Shown in pieces: positions 508 to 61,351 of a DNA stretch of 64,000 nucleotides. The DNA is taken from positions 394,910-458,909 of the forward strand of contig CM119269.1 in NCBI GenBank assembly GCA_051294375.1, in the 5' to 3' direction. A program made the position numbers and the translations under genes. This DNA is from Paraspadella gotoi (taxonomy: Eukaryota > Animalia > Chaetognatha). Numbering within the stretch: the stretch's first letter is position 1; each line of letters starts with the position of its first letter. Below the pieces are notes generated by a model, which did no database searches, was not told the DNA's origin, and worked only from the letters and a program-made list of their open reading frames with translations.

Positions 508-2073
508 TGCGAAACGCAAAAAAATCATCCGCCCATGATGCCCGCCTCCGCCGTCTCCTCTTCCCTACCTCCGCTTCCCCTCACACTTTAGAACCGGAGT
601 GAACTTTTACATTGCCTGACGGCAGTTTAATTAAATGGTAAGATTTTATTTTCTCTTCTACAACCTATTTTTTATGTTAAATATGTCTTAGTTTTCGTAT
701 TACAATTGCAATATTAGTTTGTTAAATATAAACTATAATGTAACTAAATTGAATAACTAAAAAAAATATTACTAGATCATTTTTTAATGATATTTCAAGA
801 CTGATGATATTTTTATTTTTGCTCATTCGCTGATTATTATGTCCCTAATATATATCATCTATTTTTGTTACTATTTTCACATGAAATGGTCGAATTTGTT
901 TTTCAATCGATTTTACAATTAATTTTTTTTGTTTTATTAGAAATTAAAAACGGCGAGCTTCAGGATAAGGAAAAGACGCCGAAACTTTGTTGGTAACAAT
1001 TTTTTTTCTGTACAAATTATATTGCTTAGTATTGCATTCATTATGATATTAATTAGATTAAAATCTTGTGTGCATAAGGAATTCATTAATTATTATTATT
1101 TATTATTTATTTATTTATTATTATAATTATTATTAGAGATGATTTTGTAGGATTTATAATATAGCTTTATTTTGTAAATATTGTGATTTACTTCATTTAG
1201 TTTTTACTTTTCATTACTTTCAGGATCAATCGGCAGTCCTGCTAGGTCAACAAAATCATTGTGGTTGCAGTCGTCATCAAGCACAGATTGCCTTTTTTTA
1301 CATATTATTTCCCCTTTGTCAATTTATTATAAATATTTTTTTTTTTGATTTCAATAATAAAAACGGGCGAAGGGGATAGAAGTATTAATCACTGATTTTT
1401 TTGCTGTTCTTCTTTCTCTCTGTTTAATCATGAAGTATTTCTGTCAAATAGATCAAAATACTGTGTGTACCATGTGTTATCTTTTATTATATATGTAACA
1501 ATTGTTGCATTTTTCAACACATAATAATTTAACTTAAATAAAAATCTATTCTTTTTATTTTAAATAAAACTTTGTAGGTGTATCAAACTTGTACATTCTT
1601 ACGAGTACATTCATAGGAATCAGCTTACCATGTCAATTGTCCTGAGTATGTTTTCATTTATTAGTCGATGAAAAGATAGTATGGTAGTCAGTGGTGTGTT
1701 GACGCTCGTGGCGTCCGACATGTGCGTTACAACATGGATTTAAAGTTTGACGTCTGCGGAGTCACCGCGGACGACCTCGCAATCGAGGCCGGGCCAAATT
1801 ATTAGGAAAAGTTTTACAACTGATTCAGTCGCAAAGAATGGGGGGAAAGGGGAAATTAGTATCTGTCTTAGTTTTCAGTTTACCAATGTTTGAAATGTCG
1901 CGGGAGGGAAAAGTTGCCTCTGGAACGTTCAATGCTTTTAACCCCGTTGGGGGTTATTAAACTGTTTTTACACACTTTTTAAAGTTTAAATCTCAAAAAT
2001 GAATAGTTAATTTCACACTTCTTATAAATGTAAACAGATATTTTTATCCGTCATCGTTGCCTATGTGTTGTTT

Positions 2074-2308
2074 TGAAAAAACATGATTATTGTTGTGTTA
2101 GTGACAGAACCGTTCAATATAAGCAGTCCCTGAGCTTTGGATCAGACTGACACTGTATCATCGAGTTACAGGCGGATTAAGTGCCCCGTCGCTCTTAACT
2201 GCTAGGCGACCACCGGGCTAGAACCCCGGACCTTGGGTAGGGAGGCGAATGACTTGCCTCCGGCGCCAATGGCCGCTGATGAACGGTTGATGATTTTAGT
2301 CCACCATA
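2074..2308 (-). mobile_element. tRNA-twister solo-LTR-like element, copy A (degenerate)
   Basis: Homologous to 35025-35258, 37656-37889 and 61144-61351. TG...CCATA ends on +, 4-bp TSD GTTT. tRNA-like head and twister core lie on -, with T1 and P3 mismatches. Confidence 0.85.
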
Positions 2309-4256: not shown

Positions 4257-7200
4257 GTATTGTCGTCGCTCTCGATCGAGTCGATCTTCCAGATGGCGTC
4301 GGCGATGGCGCGCCCATCGTCTCTCCGCCGTCGTCGTCGTCTTCATGCGGCGCCACCGAGGCCGGTCGCGCGTTGAGCGCCGCGTTGGCCTTCGCTTCTT
4401 CATCGACGTCGCCAGAGACATCCGCGTCGGCATCTGCGTCGGCATCGGCGGCGTCGGCGTATCCGCCCATTGAATAGGCCGAAGGAGGACCGACCTTGAG
4501 GAAAATAAAAGATAGAAAATATTGTTTAATTATTGTAAAAGATCCTCTTTTTCTCTTTCTCTTTCTCTTTCTCTCTCTCTCTCTCTCTGCTCGTTCTCGC
4601 TTCGCTGGTGTCAACGAGTTCGTATCTCCAATATTACTTATTATACTCATCTGAACCCATGATAAACTTTGATACTCAAACAAAAAATCAGATTTTATAC
4701 AGGAAAACTAAGTTTTAAATTAAAAATAAATAAATAAATAAAAAATGAATTGAATTAAATGAATTGAATGACATAAATTAAATGAATGAATTGTGGTGGT
4801 ATATTCACACCGCCTCACGTCCGTCATCCTTCAGCCAAATCCATTGGCTCAGAGGGGGAACACACCATCCCAAGCGTAGTGTTCCATCCACAGTCCTAAC
4901 GACTTCCCTCTGCGTTGGCAAAGCGAGACCGTCCTAGGGTAACCGCGCCAGTGACTGGAGGCGTCACTGAGGGTCGGAAGCCCCCAAAGCCAACAGTGAG
5001 ATGCCCCATCCCAATGGGCATCACAGGCAACCCGGCTGTTGCCATAAGTGGTGAGCCCTACTATCGAACACGCAACCTTCTCAGGGTACGCTACGACAAA
5101 CGCCTATGCCCTGCCGACTTCGGGTACGCTACGACAAACGCCTATGCCCTGGGGTACGCTACGACAAACGCCTATGCCCCACAACTCGCGCTCTCTCTCT
5201 CTCTCTCTCTCCACTATGGTAACAGTCTTGTCAGACACCTCTCAGGCTTGAGGAACCTGAGTGATGTCTTGGCCCGGGGATCCTGTGGTGGTATATTCAC
5301 ACCGCCTCACGTCCGTCATCCTTCAGCCAAATCCATTGGCTCAGAGGGGGAACACACCATCCCAAGCGTAGTGTTCCATCCACAGTCCTAACGACTTCCC
5401 TCTGCGTTGGCAAAGCGAGACCGTCCTAGGGTAACCGCGCCAGTGACTGGAGGCGTCACTGAGGGTCGGAAGCCCCAAAGCCAACAGTGAGATGCCCCAT
5501 CCCAATGGGCATCACAGGCAACCCGGCTGTTGCCATAGAATTTAATTTAAATTTTCAAGGAATAACAGTTTTTTAGTGTGTGACGACGAATTTTTATTTC
5601 ATAAGGACATGTTTCGACTCTGTGGTTGAGAGTCTTCATCAGCATTTGATTTAATCAACTCTCAACCACAGAGTCGAAACATGTCCCTATGAAATAAAAA
5701 TTCGTTGTCACACACTAAAAAACTGTTATTCCTTGAACTTAAACACAACGAAAAAGACAGAATCATAACAATTTAAATTTTAAAAAGACCTGCAGGTGAA
5801 CGCCCTACTCCTTCCTTCGTCCACCCATGACCTATCTCTTACCGATGGCGGGCCACCAATCGACTCCGGCGCTCCGATTGATTCGTCGCCAATCGACTCG
5901 GGCGGCCCGACAGAGGGCGGACCGACAGAGGGCGGGCCAATAGACATAGGAGCGGGGTAGTCTTCCATCTCTTCGTCGTCGTTGTCCGACTCCAACGCCT
6001 GCTCCTTCGCTGCTTGCTCCTGCGCTCTCGTTTCTGCTTCTCGGTTCTCTTCCTCGATTCTTTTCGCTTCCGCCCGTGACATACGCTTCTGCCTTTTGGC
6101 CGGGACTTCTCCGGCCGCCGGAATGGACGAATCCAGCGCGGACCCTTCCGGCACCGGCGCTTCGACGCCCGCAGCGCCGCCGCCCTCGCCCGAGCGGCGC
6201 CGCTCGTTCGTCGTTGGCAGAATCGAGGATTTTCGGCCGCGTTTGCCGCGACGCGTCGTGTCGAGGAGAGAGGACTCCCCGATTCTGATGAAGAATGATG
6301 GAGAAGAAATGCAAATGATAAAACTTTAATACTGATGCAGATTTCCTAATAATCGAGAGAATGATTAATAATGATTAATAATGATGGAGAAATAACTCAC
6401 CTTGACGATCCTCTCCCGCCAAGCGAGAATGACTCGCCTCCCCTCATAAGTTCCCGATCGTCAAAAGCGCCGATGTCCCCGAAGTCGTCGTCGCCCAATT
6501 GTTGAAATGAGGAAAAGTCTTCCTTCATTGTGATCTCCTCTGCTCGGGTCTGAAGGAAGGTTGGGGGAATAAATCAATAAATTAATAAATAAACAAATTA
6601 ATAAATAATTAAATATAAAAATAAATGAATTAATAACTCCTGTCTAGCTTTAGTTTTTCAGTGTGATCATTCATAGTTAAAATTACATTTGTTTTGCTAT
6701 TGAAAATAGTGAAACAAGTAATTTGAAAATTTTCATAAAAAGTAAAACGTTGTACCAATTTCATAACATTAGTAATTGTTTTCCCTTTGACCTTGCCCGA
6801 ATCGAATCCACAAAATTCATACTAATTTAAAATTAAATACAAATTAAAATTAATTATAAATAATTAATAGTTATTAACTATGAATCCGCCAGCTTCACCT
6901 GATTAAGAGTCAGCTGGCTTTGCACATCCAAGTCATTCAGATCCGTCAACGCCGTGTCAAAATCGTGAAAGTTCTCCGGCAAGGTGATGGCATTAAGCGC
7001 CGCCTCGCGATGATCCTCGGGCAAATCGACGACGCCAGGTCGAAACGCCATCTTGATCTTGACGAAAGCCTCATTGCAATCCGCCAAGAGATACTTGGCC
7101 TTACGAGAGTAGATGCGGACAACGCCTATGTGGGGAGGGGGCGCAGTTTCAGCATTTATAACCCAATAAGATTTCAAACTAATAGTCGTTTATGTTCTTT

Positions 7201-34009: not shown

Positions 34010-37000
34010 TTATCCTTCTTGAATCAGAAAATCCAAGTTGATGTTGACCGCCTCGGTATGAGGTTTTCCAAGAAAACGGTTAAGCATCCGTTGCATGAAT
34101 CGTTGATACTTTTCGCTCTCCCCTGTAATAAAATCATTATTGTAAATTGGACTAATAAATAATACGACTAATATTACCAATGTTTGACATACATTGAATT
34201 AAACTTTTAAAGACACTTTTTAAAAATTTGGAAACGCGTATAGTTTTTTTTTTTAAGTTCTGTCTAAAACAACCTTGTTTAATATTTAATCTAGAATAAG
34301 TAAAATGACAATTTTTAAAATTTAAATAATTCCGCCTCAGAATCCCAAGCGCCCTCTATCGGCTGACCTTGCAAGACCCAATAGTCTTCGTCGTCAAAGA
34401 CTCTTGTCTCGTCTGGTCTTTCCCAAATCGGGAGACGCAAGATCAAACCGGTGATGGCGCCACCAATGATTGCAATGGCCAATGTGACCACGATGGCCTC
34501 GAACTGACGACCCGCTTGTTGAGATCCGCTTAAACTGGAAACGGAAAAAAAATATAAACACTACGACAACGATAACCAATCATTAAATAATAAAATAAAT
34601 AATTACAAACGTTAACATAAAAAAAACATATTTTACATTAAATGTTTTTCAAATTTTTAATTTTTATATGTTTTTTTTTTAACCCAAATTTAACAGAAAA
34701 GTAATCATAAAATATACCTACCCCAATCCAAATTTTTTAACATCCAGCAAACAATTATATTCGTTCATGGCAGGATTCATTGCAGGGTAAGTAACCATGG
34801 TAACCTCACTGTTTGGATACCAGTGAGCGAATGCGGGAAAGATACCGCTGGCGATACCGCCCATAAGACCAGCCAATCCTTAAACGTTTGGGAATTTAAT
34901 ATATTATTAGGTCTAGAAGGAGATGATAATTATCTATGTTGTAAAAATTATTACATCCTTACTCTTGGATGTTCCAAAAAAATTTTTCAATGCATTTTTA
35001 AAATGAATTAAATTAATCAACTATTATGGTGGATGAAAATCCACCAACCATTCATCAGCGTCCATTGGTACCGGAGGCAAATCATTCGCCTCCCAACCCA
35101 AAGGTCCGGGGTTCTCGCCCGGTGGTCGTCTGGCAGTTAAGAGGGACGGGGTGCTTAACCCGCCTGTAACACAGTGTTACAGCCTGATCCGAAGCTCAGG
35201 GACTGCTTATATTGAACGGTTCTGTCACTAACACATAACAATAATTACTGTCTCTTCACTATTTGATTTTCTAATAAATAAATATTTTAAATTGTTTTTC
35301 AATTATTTTCATTCTGGTCGTTGGTCCTACGTTAGAAACGAAAAAAAATTTAAACACTTAAATAAGCACTTATCAAAAATAATATTTTATCACTATATCT
35401 TTATTTATTATCACCGTGTAGACTGTGAACTCCTCTAGAATCGTGAATTTTCAAGAATTTCCTCATGAGAGGAACGAAATATTCTTGCGCATGCGCAGTC
35501 GTCATTCCCGCCAAAACTCCGATCAAGATGGCTGCCCAAGGCGCGATGTAGGCATTGGCGAGGGCGCCCATTGCCACGCCTCCTGCCAGGCAAGCTTCTT
35601 GCACGTGGAACATGTCCAGTTCACCGAAGCCACTGAGGAATTGGGACATTGCGATGGAACCAATTGCGGAACCGGCGATGCTCCATCGGGTGTTGGCCAA
35701 AGCGACAGTCTGATCCGATCCTGGGATTGATCGATAGATTGATCGATCGTAAATAATTGATTATTTAAATATTAAAGATTTGATTTAGTGTTTTTTTTTT
35801 TACGACATCTTAAGTGTTTAGGATTGTTTTGAGTGTATTATGTTTTGGAAACACTCAATTTGAGTTACCAGAATGTTTCAATTTTATTTTATTTTGTGGA
35901 ATTTTTCTTCGTGAGCCTATTATGAAGCTTATACAATATACAATATACAACTATTATAAAAACCACGAAACTATCCCCGTACCAAGAAAGGAATAAGCAC
36001 CAAGAGAGTTTGACTTCCATATAAAGAAAAAGATATGTATAAATCGTATGTTACAATTTTTTATGTTCATAATTTAATATTAAGTATTTATATCCCTTTC
36101 TGATATTATTTACCTGTCAAATTTCTTGCATTGAACGAAGGCCACATCGCCCAGAGAAACGCCATTCCCAACAAAGCAAATGAGTTGGATTCTTTAGACG
36201 ATTTGTATTTCATATTCCCGCGCAAATATCTCTTATACAAAAGGCGAGAGACAGACAGACCAAAATAAGCGCCAAAGACGTGGACGAGAATGGATCCGCC
36301 TTCGTCAACCGCGGCGAGGTGATGCTGACAGACATAGGCGTTGATCGAGTAGAGAATGATCTCAATTATGCCCATCGCTGTCAGCTGTGATGACAAAGGG
36401 AATGAAGCAAAAAGAGAATGGAAAAATTAAGAAGAAAGGGAAGATATCTTTGTGATTTGATTTAATGATTATGACAAACCCTGTCAACTGGGATATTAAA
36501 TATGAAAGAACGGTGGCCATTAGATTTTTGTCAAAACTGTAGTTTGTATCTTTTCCTTGTTATGTGAGATTTGGTTATAAAGTAGCAGAGTTTTTATTTG
36601 TATTAAACAACGAGTTTTTCAAAATATTTGGACATGTTTCGGTCCTGGATTCAGACCTTAGTCAGCGCATTTGACAAATTTGAGATTGTCAAGATTGTCA
36701 AATTTGTCAAATGAGCTGACGAAGGTCTGAATCAAGGACCGAAACATGTCCAAATATGAAATGACATTTCTCGCACACACTCCATCACAGACCTGCAACG
36801 GCGACACGACGCCCAAAACTGCGCCGTAGCTGATCAAAACAGCAAAGACTCCGGCGTCGGCGTCGATCAAAGTCTTCAAAGTCAATTTGACGGAATTTCT
36901 ATCTTTTTCTAAAACCGGAATCGTTTCCACTCTCTTCTCTGGGGAGGGGGGAGGCAATCAATAAATCAATCAATCAATCGGTCGAAAATTCAATTGGCTA

Positions 37001-38853
37001 ATTATTTACTTTATGAATCCAACTGCCATACAATAAAAATCTCATCGTTGAATATAGTTTATCAATCAACGATTAACTTAAGTCAATTAAGTCAATAAAT
37101 TACTCAGTTAATGACTAAATAGCTAAATCACTAATTCAATCAATCAATCTCATTAAATGTGAGAGACAAAACAATCGGTCAGCCTTCCACTAAATACCTC
37201 TGATTTGAAAGAGCTTGAAGTAATTATTTCCACTAGCTCCACCTAGTTGCACCCGAAGATTTTCGTCTAGAGCGTCTCCATTTTTTAAGGCGACGCTTTG
37301 AATGTTGTTCACGAAAAGACTTTGCAAGGCGCGAGACTTGGCCGTGTCCCCTCGAACCAGGATCAGGTCAACGTCCGTTTTGTTCAACCAATGTTCGTTC
37401 AACTGCATCGTCGTTCGTGACGTCAGATGGAATTTGTCAGAATCTTTAAGGGGAGCAGGAAGTTAGGGATGGGGAGTTTTAAGGGGAGAAGGAAGTTAGG
37501 GATGGGGAGTTTTAAGGGGAGAAGGAAGTTAGGGATGGGGAGTTTTAATATATATATATAACTAATATAATAATTAACGGAAAAGTTTTGGAAAGATAAA
37601 TATATTGTCGCCAATATCAATGATACTGAATCTAAACTCATAAAAAGATTGAAATTGAAGAGACAGTGATAATTGTTATGTGTTAATGACAGAACCGTTC
37701 AATATAAGCAGTCCCTGAGCTTCGGATCAGGCTGTAACACCGTGTTACAAGCGGGTTAAGCGCCCCGTCCCTCTTAACTGCCAGACGACCACCGGGCTAG
37801 AACCCCGGACCTTTGGGTTGGGAGGCGAATGACTTGCCTCCGGCACCAATGGCCGCTGATAAACGGTTGGTGGATTTTAGTCCACCATAAAATTATCTTT
37901 TGACGAATGATTCTCCAAATGGAGAGACCGGAAAGACCGACCAAAATAGTCAATATTATTTTAGTATAATTAACCAATGATTTTGATTAAAGGAATTTTA
38001 ATCAAAAGATTTAATTTATTAAGTTTTCATAAACGGTTAATGAGCAAATCTTAATTAATTTTTGACTGGTGTTCATTTGTTTTTCCTTCTCACCGACTGT
38101 GGCGCATTTGGTCGTCGACTGATTCCAGTACAACCATCCGTTGACCAGTAGATGAATCTGTGCGCAGAGAACGACCACGTAGAGAGTGTAGCCTGACCCG
38201 CAGTGGGTGAGTCGTTCCAGGAACGTGTAGAGGAACCCGATCCCAAAAACGACCATCACGTGAACATCCTGGCCGATAGCGATAGCGATAGCGATAGCCA
38301 ATTAGAATTTTGAACAATAATCATCAAAAACAACTACATTTATACTACATCATTGGTGCTTGCTGCTAAGCTGCTTAGCCTACATCATTGTTTGCTGCAA
38401 AGCCAACATCGTTGTTACTTGCTAAAAAAAATCAAATCACAGTATTGGTTACTGCAAGGCCAACCACAGTATTGGTTGCTGCATAGCCAACCACAGTATT
38501 GGTTGCTGCATAGCCATCCACAGTATTGGCTGCTGCAAGGCCAACCACAGTATTGGTTGCTACAAGGCCAACCACAGTATTAGTTGCTGCAATTCCATCA
38601 TCACCGTTACTTGCTACAAGGCTCTCATAGATTTCACACTTTTATTATCACATCTCACCTGAAATTTAACATATTGAATGTGAGAAATGGTTTTGTCTTT
38701 TCCAGAGTCAATTTCCGGTGGGGAATCGGAGCCCTTCGCGTCGTCGTCATATTCGACTAAAGTTCCGAACAAAATAATGAAGACGATTTGAGTAGTTAAG
38801 TAAAATTTGGAAAAACTTTTGTAATGCCAAATTCGGCGTAAAATCTGGAACAT
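34010..38853 (-). CDS. Rh-family ammonium transporter, divergent paralog. Exons approx. 38853-38659, 38268-38094, 37443-37198, 36938-36793, 36384-36114, 35720-35415, 34878-34722, 34535-34369, 34122-34010
   Basis: [84 protein letters not shown]. Confidence 0.9.
35025..35258 (+). mobile_element. tRNA-twister solo-LTR-like element, copy B
   Basis: TATGG...TTCA ends, 4-bp TSD CTAT, tRNA-like head 35058-35129, twister 35133-35206. Confidence 0.9.
35133..35206 (+). ncRNA. Twister ribozyme, type P5
   Basis: P5 gcagtt/gactgc; gagg GA CGG; ggtgct; TAA ccc GC; P3 ctgtaaca/tgttacag; P4 cctga/tcagg; L4 tccgAAGC (CCG pairs with CGG). Predicted cut at 35156/35157. Confidence 0.78.
36624..36757. mobile_element. 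Inverted pair of Penelope-type minimal hammerheads
   Basis: Plus 36716-36750 CTGACGA-A-GGTC-tgaatcaag-GACC-GAAAC-ATGTC. The inverted copy on - has CTGACtA. Confidence 0.78.
37445..37548. repeat. 33-bp tandem repeat, 3 copies, including the acceptor end of an intron
   Basis: tttaaggggagaaggaagttagggatggggagt units. Confidence 0.85.
37656..37889 (-). mobile_element. tRNA-twister solo-LTR-like element, copy C (twister 37708-37781 on -)
   Basis: TG...CCATA on +, 4-bp TSD AAAT, intact twister core with P1 region ggcgct. Confidence 0.9.
38436..38592. repeat. 27-bp intronic minisatellite
   Basis: ccacagtattggttgctgcaaggccaa units; source of the QPQYWLLH ORF. Confidence 0.85.
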
Positions 38854-51730: not shown

Positions 51731-52813
51731 TGCGGCCTACGCGCTTTGATATCGCTTAACGCAACTTCCTAAGCGACGCCTTTAAAAATTTTCCCAAAAT
51801 TTTTTTTTAAAAAAAATAAGATTTTGAAAAATTTTAATCCAGTGAGATATTTCAAGATGATCCTGGCAAAGGGGAGAACGATCTAACATAGACAACAAGA
51901 AGAGATTCATCCTTCGACTCAGGGTGCAAGCGTCAAGCCTAAGCTATCGGCCAACCAGGCTGGCCTGCAAATCCCGGTTATTATTATCCTTTTTAAAACT
52001 TTTAATTTAGACTTTCGAAGCCTTTGTTGTTTGTTTTGATTCAGCTAAACAAAAAAACCAGGAGTCTTACCGCCTTTTCAATCATATGTTGTTTAACTGT
52101 TTTTCTCAGAGAAAACAAAACGTTTTGATTCAGTTGCTTGTTTTCGAATCTGAATAAATAAACAAGTCAAACTTTTATTCACTTGTTTTACTTCTTCTCA
52201 ACCATGTAATAAACTACATTTTTGAAACTAGAAATAAAGTTTTTATCTTAGCTGAATTGAATATCTCTCTTCTAAAATGAATCACCTCTAACAAACAGAC
52301 AGAGAAAAATCCCATTTATCCCTGTAAAAATCTCTAGGAACTGGAGAGAAGAAAATGAGAAGAACGAATGACGAATAGTATACCAGCAGAATAAAGTAAA
52401 CCAACTTTATCTATCGTAATTTCCACGCTCGTTATTCAACTTTGATCCCTTAGCTCTCTTTACAATGCTTTAATAATTCTCGTAATACGTATCTAGGTTT
52501 CAGAGCTACGTTAAAGGAATGCTAACGCTTATCTTTAGTGAGCCCACACTCATTGTCGGCGCCATCCTCGTGGCGTATCAACGCCACTCGGAGCCACGCC
52601 ACACTTGGTGAAACCGACGCAGGACAGAACCAACCTTCGAGAGCGGGAGACAACGGATTAAATCACCTCCTCAGGTAGGACTGGGTGAGAATTGAAGGGT
52701 ATTAAAGCGACCCACCCATCCGCTGACACCCTTTCTCCCTTTTTCTCTTTCGGTGAAACAACTATTGGAGTCAATAGCGTCAACGAAGCGAAGCAAACGA
52801 AACGTCAGCCCTA

Positions 52814-53917
52814 ATGAGCAACCCGGACCTGCGCTCACGCCTCCGTTCCGCCCAGCGCGCCACAGAGGAGCAGCCAGATCCGCCGTCGACCCTCCAAATC
52901 CCCATAGGCTTTGGACGAGGCACACGCTCACGCTCGACGTCGCCAATCTTCATCGACGCCGCCCCAGAATTCAATTTCAGGCAAATTAGCAGCGAAAACT
53001 TCGAGGACGCCGATATGGCCACTGGAGGCGACGCTCAAAGGGATAATCTCCGCGATGAGAACGAGGAGCTGCGCGCCGCCCTCGCCGCCGCCACCAGAGC
53101 CCTCGAACGAGCTTCTAATAGAAAACCGGATCTTCCTGAGTTTGATACAACGAACATAGAGATCTGGATCAAGCGCGTTGAAGCCGCTTATACACGTGCC
53201 GGCATTACAGCGCCCAAATCTAAATTTGCTCACTTAGAGTCCAAAATTGGCGTGAATGTCGATCCAAAGGTGAATCAGTTTCTCTACGGGGAAACCTCAG
53301 AGCAATCATGGCAGTCTTTTCTCGATTATCTCCGCCGAGAGTATGGCCTCACTCGACGACAACAGGCCGTCCACATGCTAGACGCCTTCGACGTCGACGG
53401 GATGAAGCCATCTAAAATGCTCGCTCGACTTGAGGAAAAAACAAAAACGGTAACGCTGGATGACATTCGAAAGGAAAAAATCCTTAGAGAGTTACCCACA
53501 GAGATTCGTAGGCAGCTGGAGGACAAAGCTGACGATCTTTCAGCGAATGAACTGTGCGAGATCGCCGATCGTCACTTCGACAATGAAGGTAACATCAAAA
53601 TAAAGGCGAACTCAGCTCTCATCAACAACGTCGAAGTAGGCCGACGAGGACGGCGCGAATCATCGTCGTCATCAGATAGCGACGCCGCCGACCTCGTCAA
53701 CGCCGTCAGCGCCGGCAGACAGAAAAACTTCAACGCCAAGAAAAAGAAAAGCCAAGGTCAAGCTACAAAGAGTAAGGCAAAGCCAAAATTACTCACGTTA
53801 TGTCACAAGCACGCGAAATTTGGTGACGACGCGTGGTCTTGTGAACCCGGGTGTTCCAAGTTCGACGACCTGCAGCGCAAACGAGAGGGAAACGCCAGAG
53901 GGGGGCGCCGTCGGTGA
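52814..53917 (+). CDS. gag: Gag
   Basis: PDLPEFDTTNIEIWIKRVEA capsid-like start and C-terminal CHKHAKFGDDAWSCEPGC zinc motif. Confidence 0.9.
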   Translation: MSNPDLRSRLRSAQRATEEQPDPPSTLQIPIGFGRGTRSRSTSPIFIDAAPEFNFRQISSENFEDADMATGGDAQRDNLRDENEELRAALAAATRALERASNRKPDLPEFDTTNIEIWIKRVEAAYTRAGITAPKSKFAHLESKIGVNVDPKVNQFLYGETSEQSWQSFLDYLRREYGLTRRQQAVHMLDAFDVDGMKPSKMLARLEEKTKTVTLDDIRKEKILRELPTEIRRQLEDKADDLSANELCEIADRHFDNEGNIKIKANSALINNVEVGRRGRRESSSSSDSDAADLVNAVSAGRQKNFNAKKKKSQGQATKSKAKPKLLTLCHKHAKFGDDAWSCEPGCSKFDDLQRKREGNARGGRRR

Positions 53918-56900
53918 ACGCCGTCCCCCAAGCCACGCGATCACCGGCGCCTTCGGACCTACTCTACATTCGAGACTCAGGGGACAGGACGAAGTGGCTA
54001 GTAGACGGCGGCGCCCTCCTCTCGATCGTCCCTCCAACAAAAGAGCAACGACAAGGCGGACCTGATCCTAAGCTGAAACTTCAGGCGGCAAACGGCTCGC
54101 CAATCAGTTGTTTTGGGACAATCGATAAGGAAGTGCAACTTGGAAATCGAAAATTCAATTATCAATTCGTTATTGCTGATGTGAAACAACACATATTGGG
54201 CGCAGACTTTCTGGCGGAAAATTTTCTGGCGCCCAATCACAGAGACGGCTTATTACTCGACTTAAGAGATTATTCTACTATCGCGGCGTCGACGGCTTCA
54301 ACCGCGTCAGAGACGACGGCCCACGTGAATTTCGTCGATCGCCAAGGCGAAAAATATTATAAGCTTCTGGACGCTTTTCCTTCATTGTCGACTCCAACTT
54401 TCGAATTAAAGGAGCCAAGGCATGGGGTCACGCACTCCATCCCGACAGAAGGAAGACCTTGTCAGTCAAGAGCGCGCCGCCTCGACGCTGAGAAATTAGC
54501 GGTGGCAAAAAAGGAGCTTGAAAAGATGGTCTCTCTCGGGATAGCCCAGCGCGGCAAATCGGAATGGTCGTCTCCGTTACATGTCGTTTCAAAACCGGAT
54601 GGAGGATGGCGCTGTTGTGGCGACTATAGGCGCCTGAATTCTCAAACAATTGACGACAAATATCCGGTTAAGTTATTAACGGATTTTAACGCGCAATTGG
54701 AAGGGAAAACCATTTTCTCAAAGATAGACCTATTAAAAGGCTATCATCAGATCCCGGTTAACCCTGATGATGTCAAGAAGACTGCAGTTATAACCCCTTT
54801 CGGGTTATATGTCTTTCCCCGATGTCCCTTTGGTCTTAAAAACGCAGGACAAGATTTCCAGCGTTTGATGGACCAAATACTCGGGGATATACCCCATACG
54901 TTTGTATATCTGGACGATATACTGGTGGCATCGTCAACACCAGAAGAGCACCTCCAGGACCTCGAGAATGTCTTCAGAGCACTCGACGCCAATGGCTTGG
55001 TGGTAAACACCAAAAAATGCTTGCTAGGCCAAGAGTCACTGGAATTTCTGGGATTCTTGGTGGACAAGAACGGAGTAAGACCACTACCAGAGCGAGTTCA
55101 AACGCTACGTGAGACCACGAGGCCTACAACAATAAAGGAGCTACAGCGATTCCTGGGAATGATAAACTACTATCGACGCTTCATTCCCAGGGTCGCCCAC
55201 CGGTGCTCAGCTCTATACGAAGCCCTCAGCGGTAAACCCAAGGCGCTAGAATGGACACCAGAGTGCGAGAAAGCTTTCGAGGCCATCAAGGAGGGCCTGA
55301 TCCAAGCTGCGTTACTACATCATCCAAGGACAGGCGCACAACTATGCATCACTACCGACGCCTCCGACCAGGCAGTTGGAGCAGTGCTAGAACAACGTGG
55401 TCCGAAGGGTTGGGAGCCTCTGGCGTTTTTTTCGACCAAGCTCGCCAAGAACCAGAAGCTATGGCCCCCCTTCGACAAAGAGCTATTCGGAGCATTCAAG
55501 GCAGTGAGACATTTTAGGCACTGGGTTGAGGGACGCGCGTTTACTATATATACGGATCATCAAAGCTTAGTATCGGCGATCAAAAAGAAGGCGGAACCGC
55601 AGACGGTCCGCCAATCCTACCAACTCTCCGTTATCGCCGAATACACGACCGATATCCGCTACCTAAAGGGCAAAGCGAACGTCGTAGCCGACGCCCTTTC
55701 GAGGCCGAACGCAACGACAGAAAAAACGGCGTCAAAAACGGCATCGACAGCGCAGAAAACTACATCGCCAGCAGCAGCGGCAGCGCCAGCAGCAGCAGCG
55801 GCAGCGTCAGCGCCAGCAGCAGCAGCAGACGCAGCAGCAGCTCATATATCAACAATCGATTCAACATCGTCACCAACAGCGACGCCAACTCAGCCATTAA
55901 ACTCATCAATCGAATCAGCTCAGGCGACAGAGATCCCGTTAGGCCCCACAACTCTAAATTCGAACGATAGGCAAATAAAAGCAAATCGTCTCGAAGACGC
56001 ACGGGCAATGATCGCCTCGATGACAAGCTATGAAATTGATTTTGAGCAAATGGCGAGTGAACAGTCACTAGACCCAGATTATCAGAGAATAGCTGAGGAC
56101 GCAAGATCGGGATTGACATTCAGGAAAATCAGAGTGGGCGACCGGGATCTCTTAGCGGACATATCAAACGGACCCGCTCGACCTTTCGTACCTCTATCAT
56201 GGCGGCGAAAAGTATTCGATATAATTCATGGACTCGGTCACCCCGGCGTCGAGGCAACGCGCAAGGCCATCACCTCTAAGTTTGTATGGACAAACATGAA
56301 ACAAGACATCTCTAAATGGGCGCGAGATTGCCTCGATTGCCAGAGAGCCAAAATCACAAGACACACAGTGCCTGAAATAGGCGAATTTCGAATTCCGCCT
56401 AAACGATTTCAGCATATAAATCTTGACCTGGTAAAAATGCCGAGCTCGAATGGATTTTCACACTTACTAACAGTAGTGGATCGATTTTCTAGATGGCCAA
56501 CGGCCATCCCAATTGTGAATACGTTAACGTCAACAATCTTAGACGCCCTCAGCCTGGAATGGATAAGTGTATTTGGGACACCAGCGATAATCACGACCGA
56601 CAGAGGGACTCAGTTTAATTCAGCTCTGTGGCGACAGTTAACTAAACAATGGGGAATTAAACACCAGACCACAACCGCTTACCATCCTCAAGCGAACGGC
56701 CTTGTAGAGCGCTTTCACAGGCGCTTGAAGGAGTCATTAATGGCCCTCGCTAGAGAAAACAAAGAACAATGGTTCTGGAAACTCCCGATGACGCTACTCG
56801 CCATAAGGACGACTATAAAAGAAGATATCGGCGCCTCCGCCGCCGACATGGTCTTCGGCGAAGGAATTAGTGTACCAGGATGTGTAGTCGACAACGCCCA

Positions 56901-57744
56901 GATCGACGACGAGGCGCTGCAAAGGCGACGCCAAACTCAATTAGCAAGCCTAAGGGTGGAAATAGCTCGACTACAACCAACTCCAACATCCGCTCATCAT
57001 CGACCGAACATCCATCTTCCCGCCAACCTGGAGACCGCCCAACACGTCTTCGTCAGAAGGGCCGGAGTCCATCCGCCTCTTGTGCCTCCATATGAAGGAC
57101 CTTATAGAGTCGTGAATCGAAACGGTCTAAACTTCACAATCGAAATCCCAAGCAAAGGACGAGAGATAATCAACGTCGCCCGCGTCAAACCGGCGTGGAC
57201 GAGCGACGAGGCGTTGGAGATCGAAACAGGGCATCCTCAGCGACGTCAACCAGGACGCCAGCCAGGCCTGAGGACGAGAGAAGCACCTACTTCAACTCGA
57301 GTTACCCGCTCATCGAATCAACGCGCAGCGTCGCCAGATCCGATCGTTTCTCCTACTCCTCCTCCTCCTCCTCCTCCTCCTCCCCCTCCTCCTCCTCCTC
57401 TGTCCCCTCCCCAACTGCCCCACCTTCCCCCCAACCCTCCCATGCCCGCTCAACGCTTTTTGCTCCCATCTTCTCCCTCCTTTTCGCTTCCACGCAAGAC
57501 GAGTCCGCCACATCGAAGCGAAAGAGAAGATAACAACAACAACAACAACGAAATCCAGCAAAATGAGCCAACGACGGAACGATTCTCAAGGCCATCTCCC
57601 GGCGACTTCTCGAGTAGACTACCGAATAAAAATCGCCCAGCCTACGCCGTCGTACTAAAGGAAATGTTACTTAGACAAAAAACACAAAACAATAACAACA
57701 ACAACAAACCGACAAAAAACAATAAAACCCCACTGTCGGCCTAA
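53851..57744 (+). CDS. pol: Pol (protease, RT, RNase H, integrase)
   Basis: LVDGGA protease, FSKIDLLKGYHQI and YLDD RT, TDAS RNase H, HxxxH...CxxC and DRG...NGLVE integrase, PYEGPY module; Gypsy domain order. Confidence 0.96.
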   Translation: MFQVRRPAAQTRGKRQRGAPSVNAVPQATRSPAPSDLLYIRDSGDRTKWLVDGGALLSIVPPTKEQRQGGPDPKLKLQAANGSPISCFGTIDKEVQLGNRKFNYQFVIADVKQHILGADFLAENFLAPNHRDGLLLDLRDYSTIAASTASTASETTAHVNFVDRQGEKYYKLLDAFPSLSTPTFELKEPRHGVTHSIPTEGRPCQSRARRLDAEKLAVAKKELEKMVSLGIAQRGKSEWSSPLHVVSKPDGGWRCCGDYRRLNSQTIDDKYPVKLLTDFNAQLEGKTIFSKIDLLKGYHQIPVNPDDVKKTAVITPFGLYVFPRCPFGLKNAGQDFQRLMDQILGDIPHTFVYLDDILVASSTPEEHLQDLENVFRALDANGLVVNTKKCLLGQESLEFLGFLVDKNGVRPLPERVQTLRETTRPTTIKELQRFLGMINYYRRFIPRVAHRCSALYEALSGKPKALEWTPECEKAFEAIKEGLIQAALLHHPRTGAQLCITTDASDQAVGAVLEQRGPKGWEPLAFFSTKLAKNQKLWPPFDKELFGAFKAVRHFRHWVEGRAFTIYTDHQSLVSAIKKKAEPQTVRQSYQLSVIAEYTTDIRYLKGKANVVADALSRPNATTEKTASKTASTAQKTTSPAAAAAPAAAAAASAPAAAADAAAAHISTIDSTSSPTATPTQPLNSSIESAQATEIPLGPTTLNSNDRQIKANRLEDARAMIASMTSYEIDFEQMASEQSLDPDYQRIAEDARSGLTFRKIRVGDRDLLADISNGPARPFVPLSWRRKVFDIIHGLGHPGVEATRKAITSKFVWTNMKQDISKWARDCLDCQRAKITRHTVPEIGEFRIPPKRFQHINLDLVKMPSSNGFSHLLTVVDRFSRWPTAIPIVNTLTSTILDALSLEWISVFGTPAIITTDRGTQFNSALWRQLTKQWGIKHQTTTAYHPQANGLVERFHRRLKESLMALARENKEQWFWKLPMTLLAIRTTIKEDIGASAADMVFGEGISVPGCVVDNAQIDDEALQRRRQTQLASLRVEIARLQPTPTSAHHRPNIHLPANLETAQHVFVRRAGVHPPLVPPYEGPYRVVNRNGLNFTIEIPSKGREIINVARVKPAWTSDEALEIETGHPQRRQPGRQPGLRTREAPTSTRVTRSSNQRAASPDPIVSPTPPPPPPPPPPPPPPLSPPQLPHLPPNPPMPAQRFLLPSSPSFSLPRKTSPPHRSEREDNNNNNNEIQQNEPTTERFSRPSPGDFSSRLPNKNRPAYAVVLKEMLLRQKTQNNNNNNKPTKNNKTPLSA
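53887..53946 (+). promoter_or_regulatory. Putative -1 ribosomal frameshift signal
   Basis: G GGA AAC heptamer in the gag phase (53887-53893), a short spacer, stem gggg-ggcg/cgcc-gt-cccc, and loop cggtga complementary to tcaccg at 53941-53946. pol is in the -1 frame. Confidence 0.75.
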
Positions 57745-59181
57745 TTGGCAGCCGAAGCCTCTTCCTCCGAGCGTCCACGGTCTTCCTCCCGCCAGCTTCG
57801 ACTGCCAATGTACAAATTACCCACGAAGATTAGTAAATTTTTTCAATTTTAGTAGTTTTTGCAATTTATGATTGTTATGGATTTGTTGTTATGGAAACGA
57901 GCGAGATGGAAATATTTTACAACCTGTTTAAACCGGTCTTTTTGCGACCTAAATTTTGTATATAGAGATATATATTGATTTTAATTTTTCAACATTCGTT
58001 CAGTCACACAGATGGACGACAACAAATATTTGTAGTAATGTAAATACCTTATATTACGACAGGGGGGGATGCGGCCAATGAGTGAGATATTTCAAATTAG
58101 AACAAACTCAATCCAACCGGGATTCGATCCTTCGACTCAGGGTTCTGGCAAGCGTCAAGCCTAAGCTATCGGCCAACCAGGCCGGCCTGCAAATCCCGGT
58201 TTATTATTATCCTTTAAAACTTAATTTAGATTCGAAGCCTTTGTTTTGTTTTGATTCAGCTAACAAAAACCAGGAGTCTTACCGCCTTTTCAATCATATG
58301 TTTTTAACTGTTTTCCTCAGAGAAAACAAAACGTTTTGATTCAGTCTTGTTTTCGAATCTGAATAAATAAACAATGTCAAACTTTTATTCACTTGTTTTT
58401 TACTTCTTCTCAACAATGTAAATACTACATTATGAAACTGAGAAATAAAGTTTTTATCTTCAATGAATTAATCTCAATTCTAAAATGAATCAATTCAACA
58501 TCGAATGAATTAATCTCTGATGAACAAACGAAGTAAACAAATAAAGTAAACAAACTTTTATCTTCGAAGTCACGTNNNNNNNNNNNNNNNNNNNNNNNNN
58601 NNNNNNNNNNNNNNNNNNNNNNNNNNNNNNNNNNNNNNNNNNNNNNNNNNNNNNNNNNNNNNNNNNNNNNNNNNNCACGAGGTCTCGTGTTCCTTCCCAG
58701 GCTCCACGTTGATGACATTTTCACTATATTTAACAAGTGTAGAAAGAATTTTATTAATGATCTATTTGTCAAAAAACACTGTACTCAAAGGAATAGTTTT
58801 TTTTCTACTATTTAATTAATTATTCTATTTTTTTGGGGGGGGTTTCTAGACCTAGTCCTGATTGATGTTAATGACTGAATCAACCATGTTGAATTCGAAA
58901 TAAAATGCATATTTTAGTTTGATTTAAAATTAAATTTGTTATTAAGTTTAATAATTAGGTTTAAGGTGAGTAATAAAGTTTAGGTTAAGGATTAGAATTA
59001 GAGATTAGAGTTAAAGTTGGATTAAAGTTTTTGTTTTAAATTAGAGTTAGTGATTAGATTAGGTTTTGGAAATAGGTTTAAAAATTAAATAAAATATTTT
59101 TTTCAATTATGTTTTAATATTAAATTTAAGAACAGAAATGAGGCGCTTTTTAAAAATAATGCCATTATTTTTTTTTTTTTT

Positions 59182-61143: not shown

Positions 61144-61351
61144 TATGGTGGACTAAAATCCACCAACTGTTCGTCAGCGGCCATTGGTGCCGGAGGCAAG
61201 TCATTAACCCAAAGGTCCGGGGTTCTAGCCCGGTGGTCGTCTGGCAGTTAACACGCCTGTAACATGGTGTTACAGCCTGATCCGAAGCTCAGGGACTGCT
61301 TATATTGAACGGTTCTGTCACTAACACATAATAATAATTACTGTCTCTTCA
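61144..61351 (+). mobile_element. tRNA-twister solo-LTR-like element, copy D (internally deleted)
   Basis: 4-bp TSD ATCT. Lacks the segment between two TTAA (catalytic GA, T1', P1) and part of the anticodon arm. Confidence 0.9.

What the first reader, a model, noticed from the sequence alone, without database searches (positions are those of the whole stretch)
4792..5537. Animal LTR 'retrozyme' whose LTRs carry a twister rather than a hammerhead ribozyme
Seen: a young non-coding element (LTRs differ by 1 nt) with a 4-bp TSD and a PBS. Each LTR holds all twister elements in P5-permuted order (GA-CCG...TAA-CCGC-GC-P3-A-GGG-TCGGAAGC-CCC), with T1 covarying (CGG/CCG instead of CCC/GGG). Known: plant LTR retrozymes use hammerheads in both LTRs to cut out unit-length RNAs that circularise and are thought to be mobilised by Gypsy enzymes, while twisters are known from non-LTR elements. 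Inference: cleavage at 4940/4941 and 5432/5433 releases a 492-nt unit RNA with 5'-OH and 2',3'-cyclic phosphate ends, ligatable by RtcB into a circle that retains the PBS. I know of no described twister-LTR retrozyme in animals.
Basis: partly seen in the sequence, partly recalled or inferred. Interest (0 to 1): 0.95.

Follow-up and report, generated by a model that had tools for sequence, protein, structure and literature searches.

The report
Twister-ribozyme LTR retrozyme in an animal
A short, protein-free jumping element found at many sites in an animal genome carries a predicted twister self-cutting RNA in both terminal repeats, which would likely cut out a 492-nucleotide RNA for Gypsy-type enzymes to copy, an arrangement we found described only with hammerhead ribozymes and mainly in plants.

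Summary
Observation confirmed. 4792-5537 is a 746-bp non-coding LTR element: LTRs of 255 and 254 bp differing by one base, a GAAT target duplication and TGT...ATA ends. Contigs of public DNA runs show about 90-130 different flanks. Ends, 4-bp duplication and tRNA-Trp primer site match CsRn1-clade Gypsy elements (PMC2582038); a Gypsy with that clade's CHCC Gag lies in the window. Each LTR holds a complete P5-permuted twister layout (chance about 1e-8 per LTR). The flipped T1 pseudoknot occurs in a natural twister (L066), and each flip is active in published mutagenesis. All five non-CpG variants of at least 1% fall in loops. Against: no Rfam P5 hit; my own model scores it marginally (E about 0.055); P1 is only 2 bp; a non-twister fold is predicted 9 kcal/mol more stable; no RNA data. 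Cleavage and circle are untested. P1 is self-complementary, so cutting may need two copies. Six literature searches found no twister LTR retrozyme; the scan's notes held no look-alike. Verdict: likely new variant of LTR retrozymes, interest 0.72.

The parts
4788..4791 (+). left target-site duplication (GAAT)
4792..5046 (+). 5' LTR, 255 bp, TGT...ATA; no AATAAA, ATTAAA or TATAAA, no Pol III B box
4914..4994 (+). predicted type-P5 twister ribozyme with P3, flipped T1 and 2-bp P1; predicted cut 4940/4941
4932..4939 (+). P1 segment, self-complementary over 8 nt (possible site of pairing between two ribozyme copies)
   Evidence: duplex -11.0 kcal/mol; variants
4941..5432 (+). predicted unit-length RNA, 492 nt, between the two cut sites
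   Evidence: circular fold -168.7 kcal/mol, 59% paired, z -2.7, 1 of 100 shuffles as stable; existence not shown
5049..5060 (+). primer-binding site of the tRNA-Trp type used by CsRn1-clade Gypsy elements, 2 nt after the LTR
5065..5083 (+). second tRNA-Trp-complementary box (18 of 19 nt antisense to a published tRNA-Trp-CCA fragment)
5084..5181 (+). three 30-nt repeats (5084-5113, 5122-5151, 5152-5181), each a predicted hairpin; role unknown, packaging signal is a guess
5191..5211 (+). CT microsatellite
5276..5280 (+). short purine run 3 nt before LTR2 (weak polypurine tract)
5284..5537 (+). 3' LTR, 254 bp
5406..5485 (+). second copy of the predicted twister; predicted cut 5432/5433
5538..5541 (+). 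right target-site duplication (GAAT)
51904..58500 (+). Gypsy element with CHCC Gag (52778-53917), Pol (53845-57744) and a tRNA-Trp-like primer site at 52606; shows that the likely helper clade is in this genome, not that this copy is the helper

Best explanation
It is a multi-copy, non-coding LTR element with the ends, 4-bp duplication and tRNA-Trp primer site of CsRn1-clade Gypsy retrotransposons, whose two LTRs each hold a predicted twister ribozyme that likely cuts a longer transcript at the same position in both LTRs and would release a 492-nt RNA. Steps: (shown) anatomy, many insertion sites, twister layout, CsRn1-type signals. [quoted passage not shown] (Inferred) Because both cuts fall at the same LTR position the product has no terminal repeat for the usual first strand jump, so a host ligase would close it into a circle; a CsRn1-type reverse transcriptase primed by tRNA-Trp 108 nt behind the cut would run through the joint, rebuild both LTRs, and the integrase would insert the copy with a 4-bp duplication. 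(Speculative) The 2-bp P1 is too weak alone, and its self-complementary 8 nt may pair between the two LTR copies, so that cutting needs a two-LTR precursor while the single copy in the circle rests in the more stable non-cutting fold.
For: Anatomy. Mobility: 94 contigs in run X1, 92 plus 39 in X5 and 29 in X9 leave the LTR end into unlike flanks (agreement 0.43-0.46). Helper signals: PMC2582038 section 6 gives 4-bp TSD, TGT...ATA or AAA ends, tRNA-Trp site and CHCC Gag for the CsRn1 clade; the element has the first three, a Gypsy in the window has CHCC Gag; second tRNA-Trp box 18 of 19 nt, next best place in the window has 6 mismatches. Twister. L066, a phage-collection contig, is a full-length twister-P1 match (48.3 bits, E 3e-10, below the 67.2 cut-off) with the same L4 and flipped T1. 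In the rice twister the pair flips C26G/G48C and C27G/G47C keep 0.74 and 0.86 relative activity while mismatched combinations give 0.03-0.04, and the P2 mismatch G44A keeps 0.97 (PMC5113685 supplement); P1 and P2 imperfections are tolerated in natural twisters (10.1101/2024.07.11.603121). A model built from 5 phage P5 twisters ranks the two LTR sites first and second in 64 kb over its full length. Variation: 5 of 19 loop or linker positions but 0 of 62 stem or core positions carry a non-CpG variant of at least 1% in run X4 (Fisher p 5e-4); none of 13 LTR sites varying at 5% or more lies in the constrained core. One contig per run in X4 and X6 shows a two-sided change that keeps a P3 pair; one contig in X5 changes both central palindrome bases and stays self-complementary, and both changes are among the 1% variants. 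With 4932-4939 held out of intramolecular pairing the lowest-energy fold becomes P5-P2-P3-P4.
Against: No Rfam twister-P5 or -P3 match; partial P1 match only. My own model gives only 18.2 and 18.1 bits (E about 0.055), and an unrelated repeat scores 17.5. The nested minimum-energy fold of the motif is not the twister: -33.0 against -23.9 kcal/mol, P2 and P4 at 1-2% (pseudoknots not counted). Co-folding two copies does not give the palindrome duplex (kissing loops cannot be modelled there). All 10 Rfam-confirmed P5 twisters fetched (9, 1) have a long P1 hairpin; only one weak short-P1 candidate turned up (L098, 21 bits, E 0.085). The two T1 flips together were not in the published data. CpG-type changes of 1-2% do hit the core, including T1 (4931, 4976); counting all variants p is only 0.03; loops of DNA hairpins may vary more for mutational reasons, and the 3' hairpins outside the ribozyme show no 5% site either. 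Some 1% palindrome variants (4936 A>T) put a mismatch in the duplex. The predicted circle is 59% paired, below the 70% or more reported for retrozyme RNAs (PMC4918200). The purine tract is short. The Gypsy in the window shares no significant sequence with the element and has other ends. No relative in another species was found to give real covariation.
Confidence: 0.62

Rival explanations
1. The twister is active but the element moves as a linear RNA: the 5' ribozyme frees it from a host read-through transcript, cutting in the 3' LTR is slow or incomplete, and the uncut 3' part supplies the terminal repeat for an ordinary strand jump. No circle is needed.
For: Same twister evidence as above. 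The predicted competing fold would make cutting partial. Twisters serve as 5'-end processors in Perere-3 and RTE non-LTR elements (PMC8501958; PMC7761336). Predicted circle is less paired (59%) than plant retrozyme RNAs.
Against: Both LTRs carry the same complete motif and there is no poly(A) signal to define another 3' end; plant elements of the same layout do make circles (PMC7761336).
Confidence: 0.2
2. It is an ordinary TRIM of the CsRn1 clade that once captured a twister (for example from a LINE 5' end) which no longer cuts; the sequence is kept because the family is young or because its hairpins serve packaging or dimerisation.
For: No Rfam hit at cut-off; non-twister fold predicted 9 kcal/mol more stable; LTRs of this copy differ by one base and many contigs are 95% or more alike, so there has been little time to decay; 8 of 9 Xenopus hammerhead retrozymes tested did not cut (10.64898/2026.07.22.740005).
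Against: Both pseudoknots, all catalytic positions and four helices are intact; the 5' third of the LTR and the L3 and P1 loops vary while the core does not; twisters at LINE 5' ends are P1-ordered in the table I saw, this one is P5-ordered with a closing helix.
Confidence: 0.14
3. It is a Helenus-type TRIM: the conserved LTR block is a tRNA-derived RNA polymerase III promoter and the twister likeness is accidental.
For: Animal Helenus elements have 4-bp duplications, Gypsy-type primer sites including tRNA-Trp, and similar sizes (PMC10886601); an A-box-like motif starts at 4916.
Against: No B box and no GGTTC in the LTR on either strand, no tRNA called in the window, no Rfam tRNA match; twister layout is about 1e-8 by chance.
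Confidence: 0.03

Closest known systems
Plant LTR retrozymes (Cervera et al. 2016, PMC4918200; review PMC7761336)
   Same: Non-coding, two LTRs each with a self-cleaving ribozyme motif, 4-bp target duplication, primer site behind the 5' LTR, Gypsy-type signals, ribozyme predicted in a blocked fold in the unit RNA.
   Different: Twister rather than type III hammerhead; animal host; tRNA-Trp and CsRn1-clade ends rather than tRNA-Met; smaller (LTR 255 bp, unit 492 nt against about 350 bp and 600-1000 nt); circle not shown.
Metazoan non-LTR retrozymes (described in PMC7761336 and 10.64898/2026.07.22.740005)
   Same: Animal, non-coding, ribozyme-delimited unit; minimal ribozymes that may cut as dimers.
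   Different: Those are tandem repeats with type I hammerheads, without LTR, primer site or purine tract, tied to Penelope-like elements.
Twister variants of Perere-3 and RTE non-LTR retrotransposons (PMC8501958; PMC7761336)
   Same: Twister in an animal retroelement, weak P1.
   Different: One P1-ordered ribozyme at the 5' end of a coding LINE; here two P5-ordered copies inside the LTRs of a non-coding element.
Type-P5 twister ribozymes (Rfam RF02684; loci L052-L056, L060, L062-L064, L178)
   Same: Same order of elements; five of the fetched loci also carry a P3 hairpin.
   Different: Long P1 hairpin and canonical T1 there; 8-nt self-complementary P1 segment and flipped T1 here; the Rfam model does not score this motif.
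CsRn1-clade Gypsy retrotransposons (PwRn1, AgCR; PMC2582038)
   Same: 4-bp duplication, TGT...ATA ends, tRNA-Trp primer site.
   Different: No gag or pol; no ribozyme was mentioned in the passages read.
Animal TRIMs with RNA-derived LTR inserts: Helenus, Ajax (PMC10886601)
   Same: Short non-autonomous LTR elements in animals, 4-bp duplication, Gypsy-type primer site, structured RNA module in the LTR.
   Different: Their module is a tRNA- or 5S-derived Pol III promoter; no B box here.

Membership tests
Twister ribozyme | UAA at the cut site followed by P2 | tested here: met
   4940-4942, 5432-5434; element order from the table in PMC8501958
Twister ribozyme | G and A between P2' and T1' (general base; A.A pair) | tested here: met
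   G4927, A4928, with A4978-A4979 in L4
Twister ribozyme | Pseudoknot T1, three Watson-Crick pairs | tested here: met
   4929-4931 with 4975-4977, two pairs flipped; same flip in L066; each flip active singly
Twister ribozyme | Pseudoknot T2, two G-C pairs | tested here: met
   4947-4948 with 4980-4981
Twister ribozyme | P2 of four pairs | tested here: inconclusive
   3 WC pairs and one A.C; the equivalent change keeps 0.97 activity in the rice twister
Twister ribozyme | P4 closing an 8-nt L4 | tested here: met
   3 G-C pairs, L4 4974-4981
Twister ribozyme, type P5 | P1 closed as a stable hairpin | tested here: not met
   2 bp only (8 bp if two copies pair); 10 of 10 Rfam-confirmed P5 loci fetched have a long P1; P1 reported dispensable
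Twister ribozyme (Rfam clan CL00120) | Score at or above the curators' cut-off | tested here: not met
   best 15.2 bits against 67.2 (P1), no P5 or P3 match; own model 18.2 bits, E about 0.055
Twister ribozyme | Site-specific self-cleavage | not testable with these tools
   needs transcription in vitro
LTR retrozyme | Self-cleaving ribozyme motif at the same place in both LTRs | tested here: met
   (predicted motif, activity untested)
LTR retrozyme | The ribozyme is a type III hammerhead | tested here: not met
   no CTGANGA...GAAA core on either strand of 4701-5600, no Rfam hammerhead match
LTR retrozyme | 4-bp target duplication, primer site, purine tract | tested here: inconclusive
   duplication and primer site present (tRNA-Trp, not tRNA-Met); purine tract only 5 nt
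LTR retrozyme | No coding capacity | tested here: met
   one 163-codon open stretch without Pfam match at E up to 1; a frame-shifting insertion in it is common; all six frames of the circle hold stops
LTR retrozyme | Unit-length linear and circular RNA accumulates in the host | not testable with these tools
   only contigs, no run on record as RNA
CsRn1-clade-dependent non-autonomous element (TRIM) | TGT...ATA or AAA ends, 4-bp duplication, tRNA-Trp primer site | tested here: met
CsRn1-clade-dependent non-autonomous element (TRIM) | An autonomous partner with matching ends in the same genome | tested here: inconclusive
   a CHCC-Gag Gypsy is in the window but its ends and primer site differ; the rest of the genome could not be searched
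Helenus (tRNA-derived TRIM) | A box and B box (GGTTC) of a tRNA-like sequence in the LTR | tested here: not met
   A-box-like motif only; no B box or GGTTC; no tRNA

The most novel reading that the evidence does not exclude
An animal LTR retrozyme that arose independently of the plant ones: a CsRn1-Gypsy passenger that uses a eukaryotic P5-type twister, switched on by pairing of the self-complementary P1 segments of its two LTRs, to cut out and circularise a 492-nt RNA that is then stable because the lone ribozyme in the circle misfolds. It would be the first natural twister that works as a dimer, and would show that any self-cleaving ribozyme can turn a TRIM into a circular-RNA retroelement.
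Probability: 0.25. Interest if true: 0.88.

Novelty: new variant of a known kind. Interest (0 to 1): 0.72.

Why it matters
The reviews read here split retrozymes into plant LTR elements with type III hammerheads and animal non-LTR repeats with type I hammerheads (PMC7761336; 10.64898/2026.07.22.740005). An animal LTR element with a twister breaks both pairings and points to convergence: the circle-making trick would depend on self-cleavage in both LTRs, not on the hammerhead or on plants. It names a specific helper clade (CsRn1, by three independent signals), which makes the long-standing but untested model of Gypsy enzymes copying a ribozyme-made circle testable in a young, high-copy family. 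It would give twisters a second role in eukaryotes besides LINE 5'-end processing. It also shows a blind spot: Rfam's twister models miss this motif, so more such elements may sit unrecognised among animal TRIMs.

Tried and rejected
No whole genome was available, so copies could not be collected and aligned; variation comes only from tables of contigs laid on the window. Rfam scans of the element: no twister match at cut-off. Pattern search for relatives with the flipped T1 in P5 order: 3 viral and 32 metagenome loci, 2 of 35 with three P2 pairs, none similar to the element by BLAST; all treated as chance. Search of viral contigs for the second primer box: 16 loci, 0 of 16 with a tRNA. Looser flipped-T1 search in P1 order: 14 loci, 13 new, 0 of 13 with an Rfam match at E up to 0.05. 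Search for natural P5 twisters with a short P1: 99 new loci parsed, 6 passed the P2 and T1 filter, 1 was a true P5 twister with a long P1 and 1 a weak short-P1 candidate. No RNA holder listed among public runs; X9 and X10 are only guessed to be RNA and, being contigs, show neither ends, strand nor level. Organism B's run X10 holds one 276-nt contig identical to 4856-5131 at depth 6; not taken as a second host species. Biofilm runs X11 and X12 hold near-identical low-depth copies; no new covariation. Co-folding two motif copies did not give the palindrome duplex. Hammerhead and P1-ordered twister descriptors found nothing in the element or the window. Host phylum could not be fixed: best hits are unnamed. 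The scan's own notes held no look-alike and one unrelated hammerhead finding. The supplement of PMC11662667, which lists the natural twisters tested and their genetic contexts, could not be read; it and Roth et al. 2014 (not read) may hold P5-type or flipped-T1 twisters from animals. Repbase and Dfam were not searchable, so the element may already be catalogued as a plain TRIM.
Full report
1. The observation. The element is real and lies where stated. LTR1 (4792-5046, 255 bp) and LTR2 (5284-5537, 254 bp) differ by one C in a C-run; GAAT flanks both ends; the termini are TGT and ATA; the 237-bp interior holds a primer site, three 30-nt repeats and a CT run; there is no other copy in the window. 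The host is an animal: the named best hits of a mitochondrial carrier and of a USP12/46 exon in the window are all metazoan; the closest hits are unnamed and the phylum stays open.

2. It is a mobile family. Twelve of 16 listed public runs, from 5 studies, hold the stretch; none is on record as RNA. Laid on the window, 94 contigs of X1, 92 plus 39 of X5 and 29 of X9 leave the LTR end into unlike sequence (agreement 0.43-0.46), i.e. on the order of a hundred insertion sites at least; the table was cut, so this is a floor.

3. The likely helper. PMC2582038 (passages and section 6 read) lists for CsRn1-clade Gypsy elements a 4-bp duplication, TGT...AAA or TGT...ATA ends, a tRNA-Trp primer site and a CX2HX9CX3C Gag. 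The element has the first three. A second box at 5065-5083 is antisense at 18 of 19 nt to a tRNA-Trp-CCA fragment printed in PMC8722339 (one passage read); the next best place on the + strand of the window has 6 mismatches. A Gypsy with RT, RNase H, integrase and the CHCC motif lies at 51.9-58.5 kb, so the clade is in this genome; but its ends and primer letters differ and BLAST finds no significant likeness, so it is not shown to be the partner. The purine tract before LTR2 is only 5 nt.

4. The twister motif. Using the element order tabulated in PMC8501958 (passages), every part is present in P5-permuted order: P5 (6 WC pairs), P2 (3 WC plus A.C), GA, T1 (3 WC), UAA, T2 (2 G-C), P3 (7 WC), P4 (3 G-C) with an 8-nt L4. 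A loose descriptor with free T1 hits only these two places in 64 kb and 0 of 20,000 shuffled LTRs; 2 hits in 20 Mb of random sequence give 5e-5 per LTR, and P3 and P5 in place bring this to about 9e-9 if independent. The descriptor was written after seeing the motif, and the LTR is structured throughout (z -3.3), so the figure is optimistic, but it leaves room for a scan of many genomes. Three outside checks bear on the odd features. First, L066 is a full-length Rfam twister-P1 match with the same L4 and flipped T1. Second, in the all-double-mutant data for the rice twister (PMC5113685, main text read whole, supplement parts 6 and 10 of 12) the flips C26G/G48C and C27G/G47C keep 0.74 and 0.86 relative activity, mismatched combinations 0.03-0.04, and G44A, the equivalent of the A.C in P2, 0.97; both flips together were not tested. 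Third, P1 and P2 imperfections do not lower cleavage among natural twisters (10.1101/2024.07.11.603121, passages and first half of section 31; PMC9901934, passages, agrees on T1).

5. Results against. Rfam gives no P5 or P3 match and only a partial P1 match (15.2 bits, cut-off 67.2). I fetched 14 loci with a canonical P5 pattern, 9 of which pass Rfam's P5 cut-off, built a model from the 5 that I aligned with a P3 hairpin, and searched the window unfiltered: the two LTR sites rank first and second over the whole model, but at 18.2 and 18.1 bits (E about 0.055), with an unrelated repeat at 17.5. Such models do not score pseudoknot pairs, so the flipped T1 costs bits, but the result is marginal. 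The nested lowest-energy fold of the motif keeps P5 and P3 but pairs the G-run before the cut site with the L4/P4' side (-33.0 against -23.9 kcal/mol for the twister without its pseudoknots). P1 is 2 bp, whereas all 10 confirmed P5 loci have a long hairpin.

6. Variation in the family. In one search (121 nt, differences from 1%) 15 rows were listed. Leaving out two rows that reach 1% only in the low-depth run X12 (4920, 4937, both in free positions), 12 positions vary: 7 are CpG-type changes, 6 of them in stems or core; the 5 others (4934, 4935, 4936, 4956, 4960) all lie in the P1 or L3 loops, 5 of 19 free against 0 of 62 constrained positions (p 5e-4; all variants 6 of 19 against 6 of 62, p 0.03). 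Of 13 LTR sites varying at 5% or more (one further site, 4870, outside the core, left out), 11 lie 5' of the motif, 2 in L3, none in the core (p about 0.03); none lies in the hairpins 3' of the motif either, so constraint is not confined to the ribozyme. One contig per run in X4 and X6 has a two-sided change that keeps a P3 pair; one contig in X5 changes both central bases of the P1 segment and keeps it self-complementary. These are single records, variants are inherited and not independent, and DNA hairpin loops may be more mutable; the evidence is suggestive, not a covariation test. No relative in another species was found.

7. How it most likely works. Shown: anatomy, copy spread, twister layout, CsRn1-type signals. 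Inferred from twister chemistry and the plant retrozyme model (PMC4918200, PMC7761336, PMC6765202, PMC11722881, passages): a transcript spanning both LTRs is cut at 4940/4941 and 5432/5433. The LTR has no AATAAA, ATTAAA or TATAAA, so the ribozymes may set both ends. The 492-nt product has no terminal repeat; closing it into a circle would let reverse transcription, primed 108 nt behind the cut, run through the joint and rebuild both LTRs. The predicted circle folds better than 99 of 100 shuffles but is only 59% paired, with the ribozyme in the non-twister state. Speculative: 4932-4939 can form a duplex with a second copy (-11.0 kcal/mol), and with it held out of intramolecular pairing the lowest-energy fold becomes the twister's P5-P2-P3-P4; this would make cutting depend on two LTRs, as minimal hammerheads cut as dimers. 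Nested co-folding did not recover this duplex, and one 1% variant weakens it. I put 0.62 on the unit-RNA retrozyme cycle, 0.20 on an active twister with a linear route, 0.14 on an inactive passenger, 0.03 on a Helenus-type promoter (PMC10886601, parts 2 and 3 of 6 read; no B box).

8. Novelty. Six searches (retrozyme + twister; twister ribozyme + LTR + retrotransposon; terminal-repeat retrotransposon + miniature + ribozyme; self-cleaving ribozyme + long terminal repeat + Gypsy + non-autonomous since 2019; twister + ribozyme + copepod; twister + TRIM + primer binding site + circular RNA) gave no paper whose listing, or whose passages where I read them, describes a twister in LTRs or an animal LTR retrozyme. 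PMC7761336 states that metazoan retrozymes lack LTRs, PBS and PPT and places twisters at RTE 5' ends; a 2026 preprint (passages) says LTR retrozymes carry type III hammerheads and are primarily found in plants; PMC13725137 and 10.1101/2022.07.19.500677 (passages) report twisters in viruses and viroid-like circles. PMC5680766 was seen as a listing only. The library lacks most subscription papers, Repbase and Dfam were not searchable, and the supplement of PMC11662667 could not be read. It works like a plant LTR retrozyme but fails that family's hammerhead criterion, and looks like a type-P5 twister but fails Rfam's cut-off: a new variant of a known kind. The scan's notes held no look-alike.

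9. Verdict. Observation confirmed; interpretation partly supported, with the helper narrowed to the CsRn1 clade and a possible dimer switch added; activity and circle untested. Interest 0.72.

Noticed in passing
L066:57-125 (-): A phage-collection contig holds a full-length twister-P1 match with the same flipped T1 as the element (48.3 bits, below Rfam's cut-off): a natural twister variant that the curated threshold misses.
   Followed up: partly
L098:59-109 (-): Weak type-P5 twister candidate in a proteobacterial genome bin with an 8-nt P1 segment and another T1 variant (21 bits, E 0.085).
   Followed up: partly
window 51904-58500: Gypsy element with CHCC Gag and an open 1299-codon Pol in another frame; LTR-like repeats about 89.5% alike, the 3' one runs towards an assembly gap; its primer site at 52606 also shows a second box like the small element's.
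   Followed up: partly
window 5554-5737: A 184-nt near-perfect palindrome begins 12 nt after the element; it is itself multi-copy with many different flanks in public runs, likely a MITE or foldback repeat; its Rfam microRNA matches are all below cut-off.
   Followed up: partly
window 2073-2308, 35024-35258, 37655-37889, 61144-61352: A dispersed repeat of about 235 nt in four copies, 77-94% alike, in both orientations; SINE-like by size, not examined.
   Followed up: no
window 4900-5391 (+): A 163-codon open stretch covers almost the whole predicted 492-nt unit, whose length is a multiple of three; no Pfam match, and a common insertion in other copies breaks the frame, so probably chance.
   Followed up: partly
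window 4792-5537, runs X1, X5, X9: Summed contig depth is several times higher on the LTRs than on the internal part, a hint of many solo LTRs; contig depth is no copy number.
   Followed up: no
window 4914-4994, run X4: Five of six CpG sites in the motif show 1-2% deamination-type changes although the window as a whole is not CpG-poor, a hint that this repeat family is methylated.
   Followed up: no
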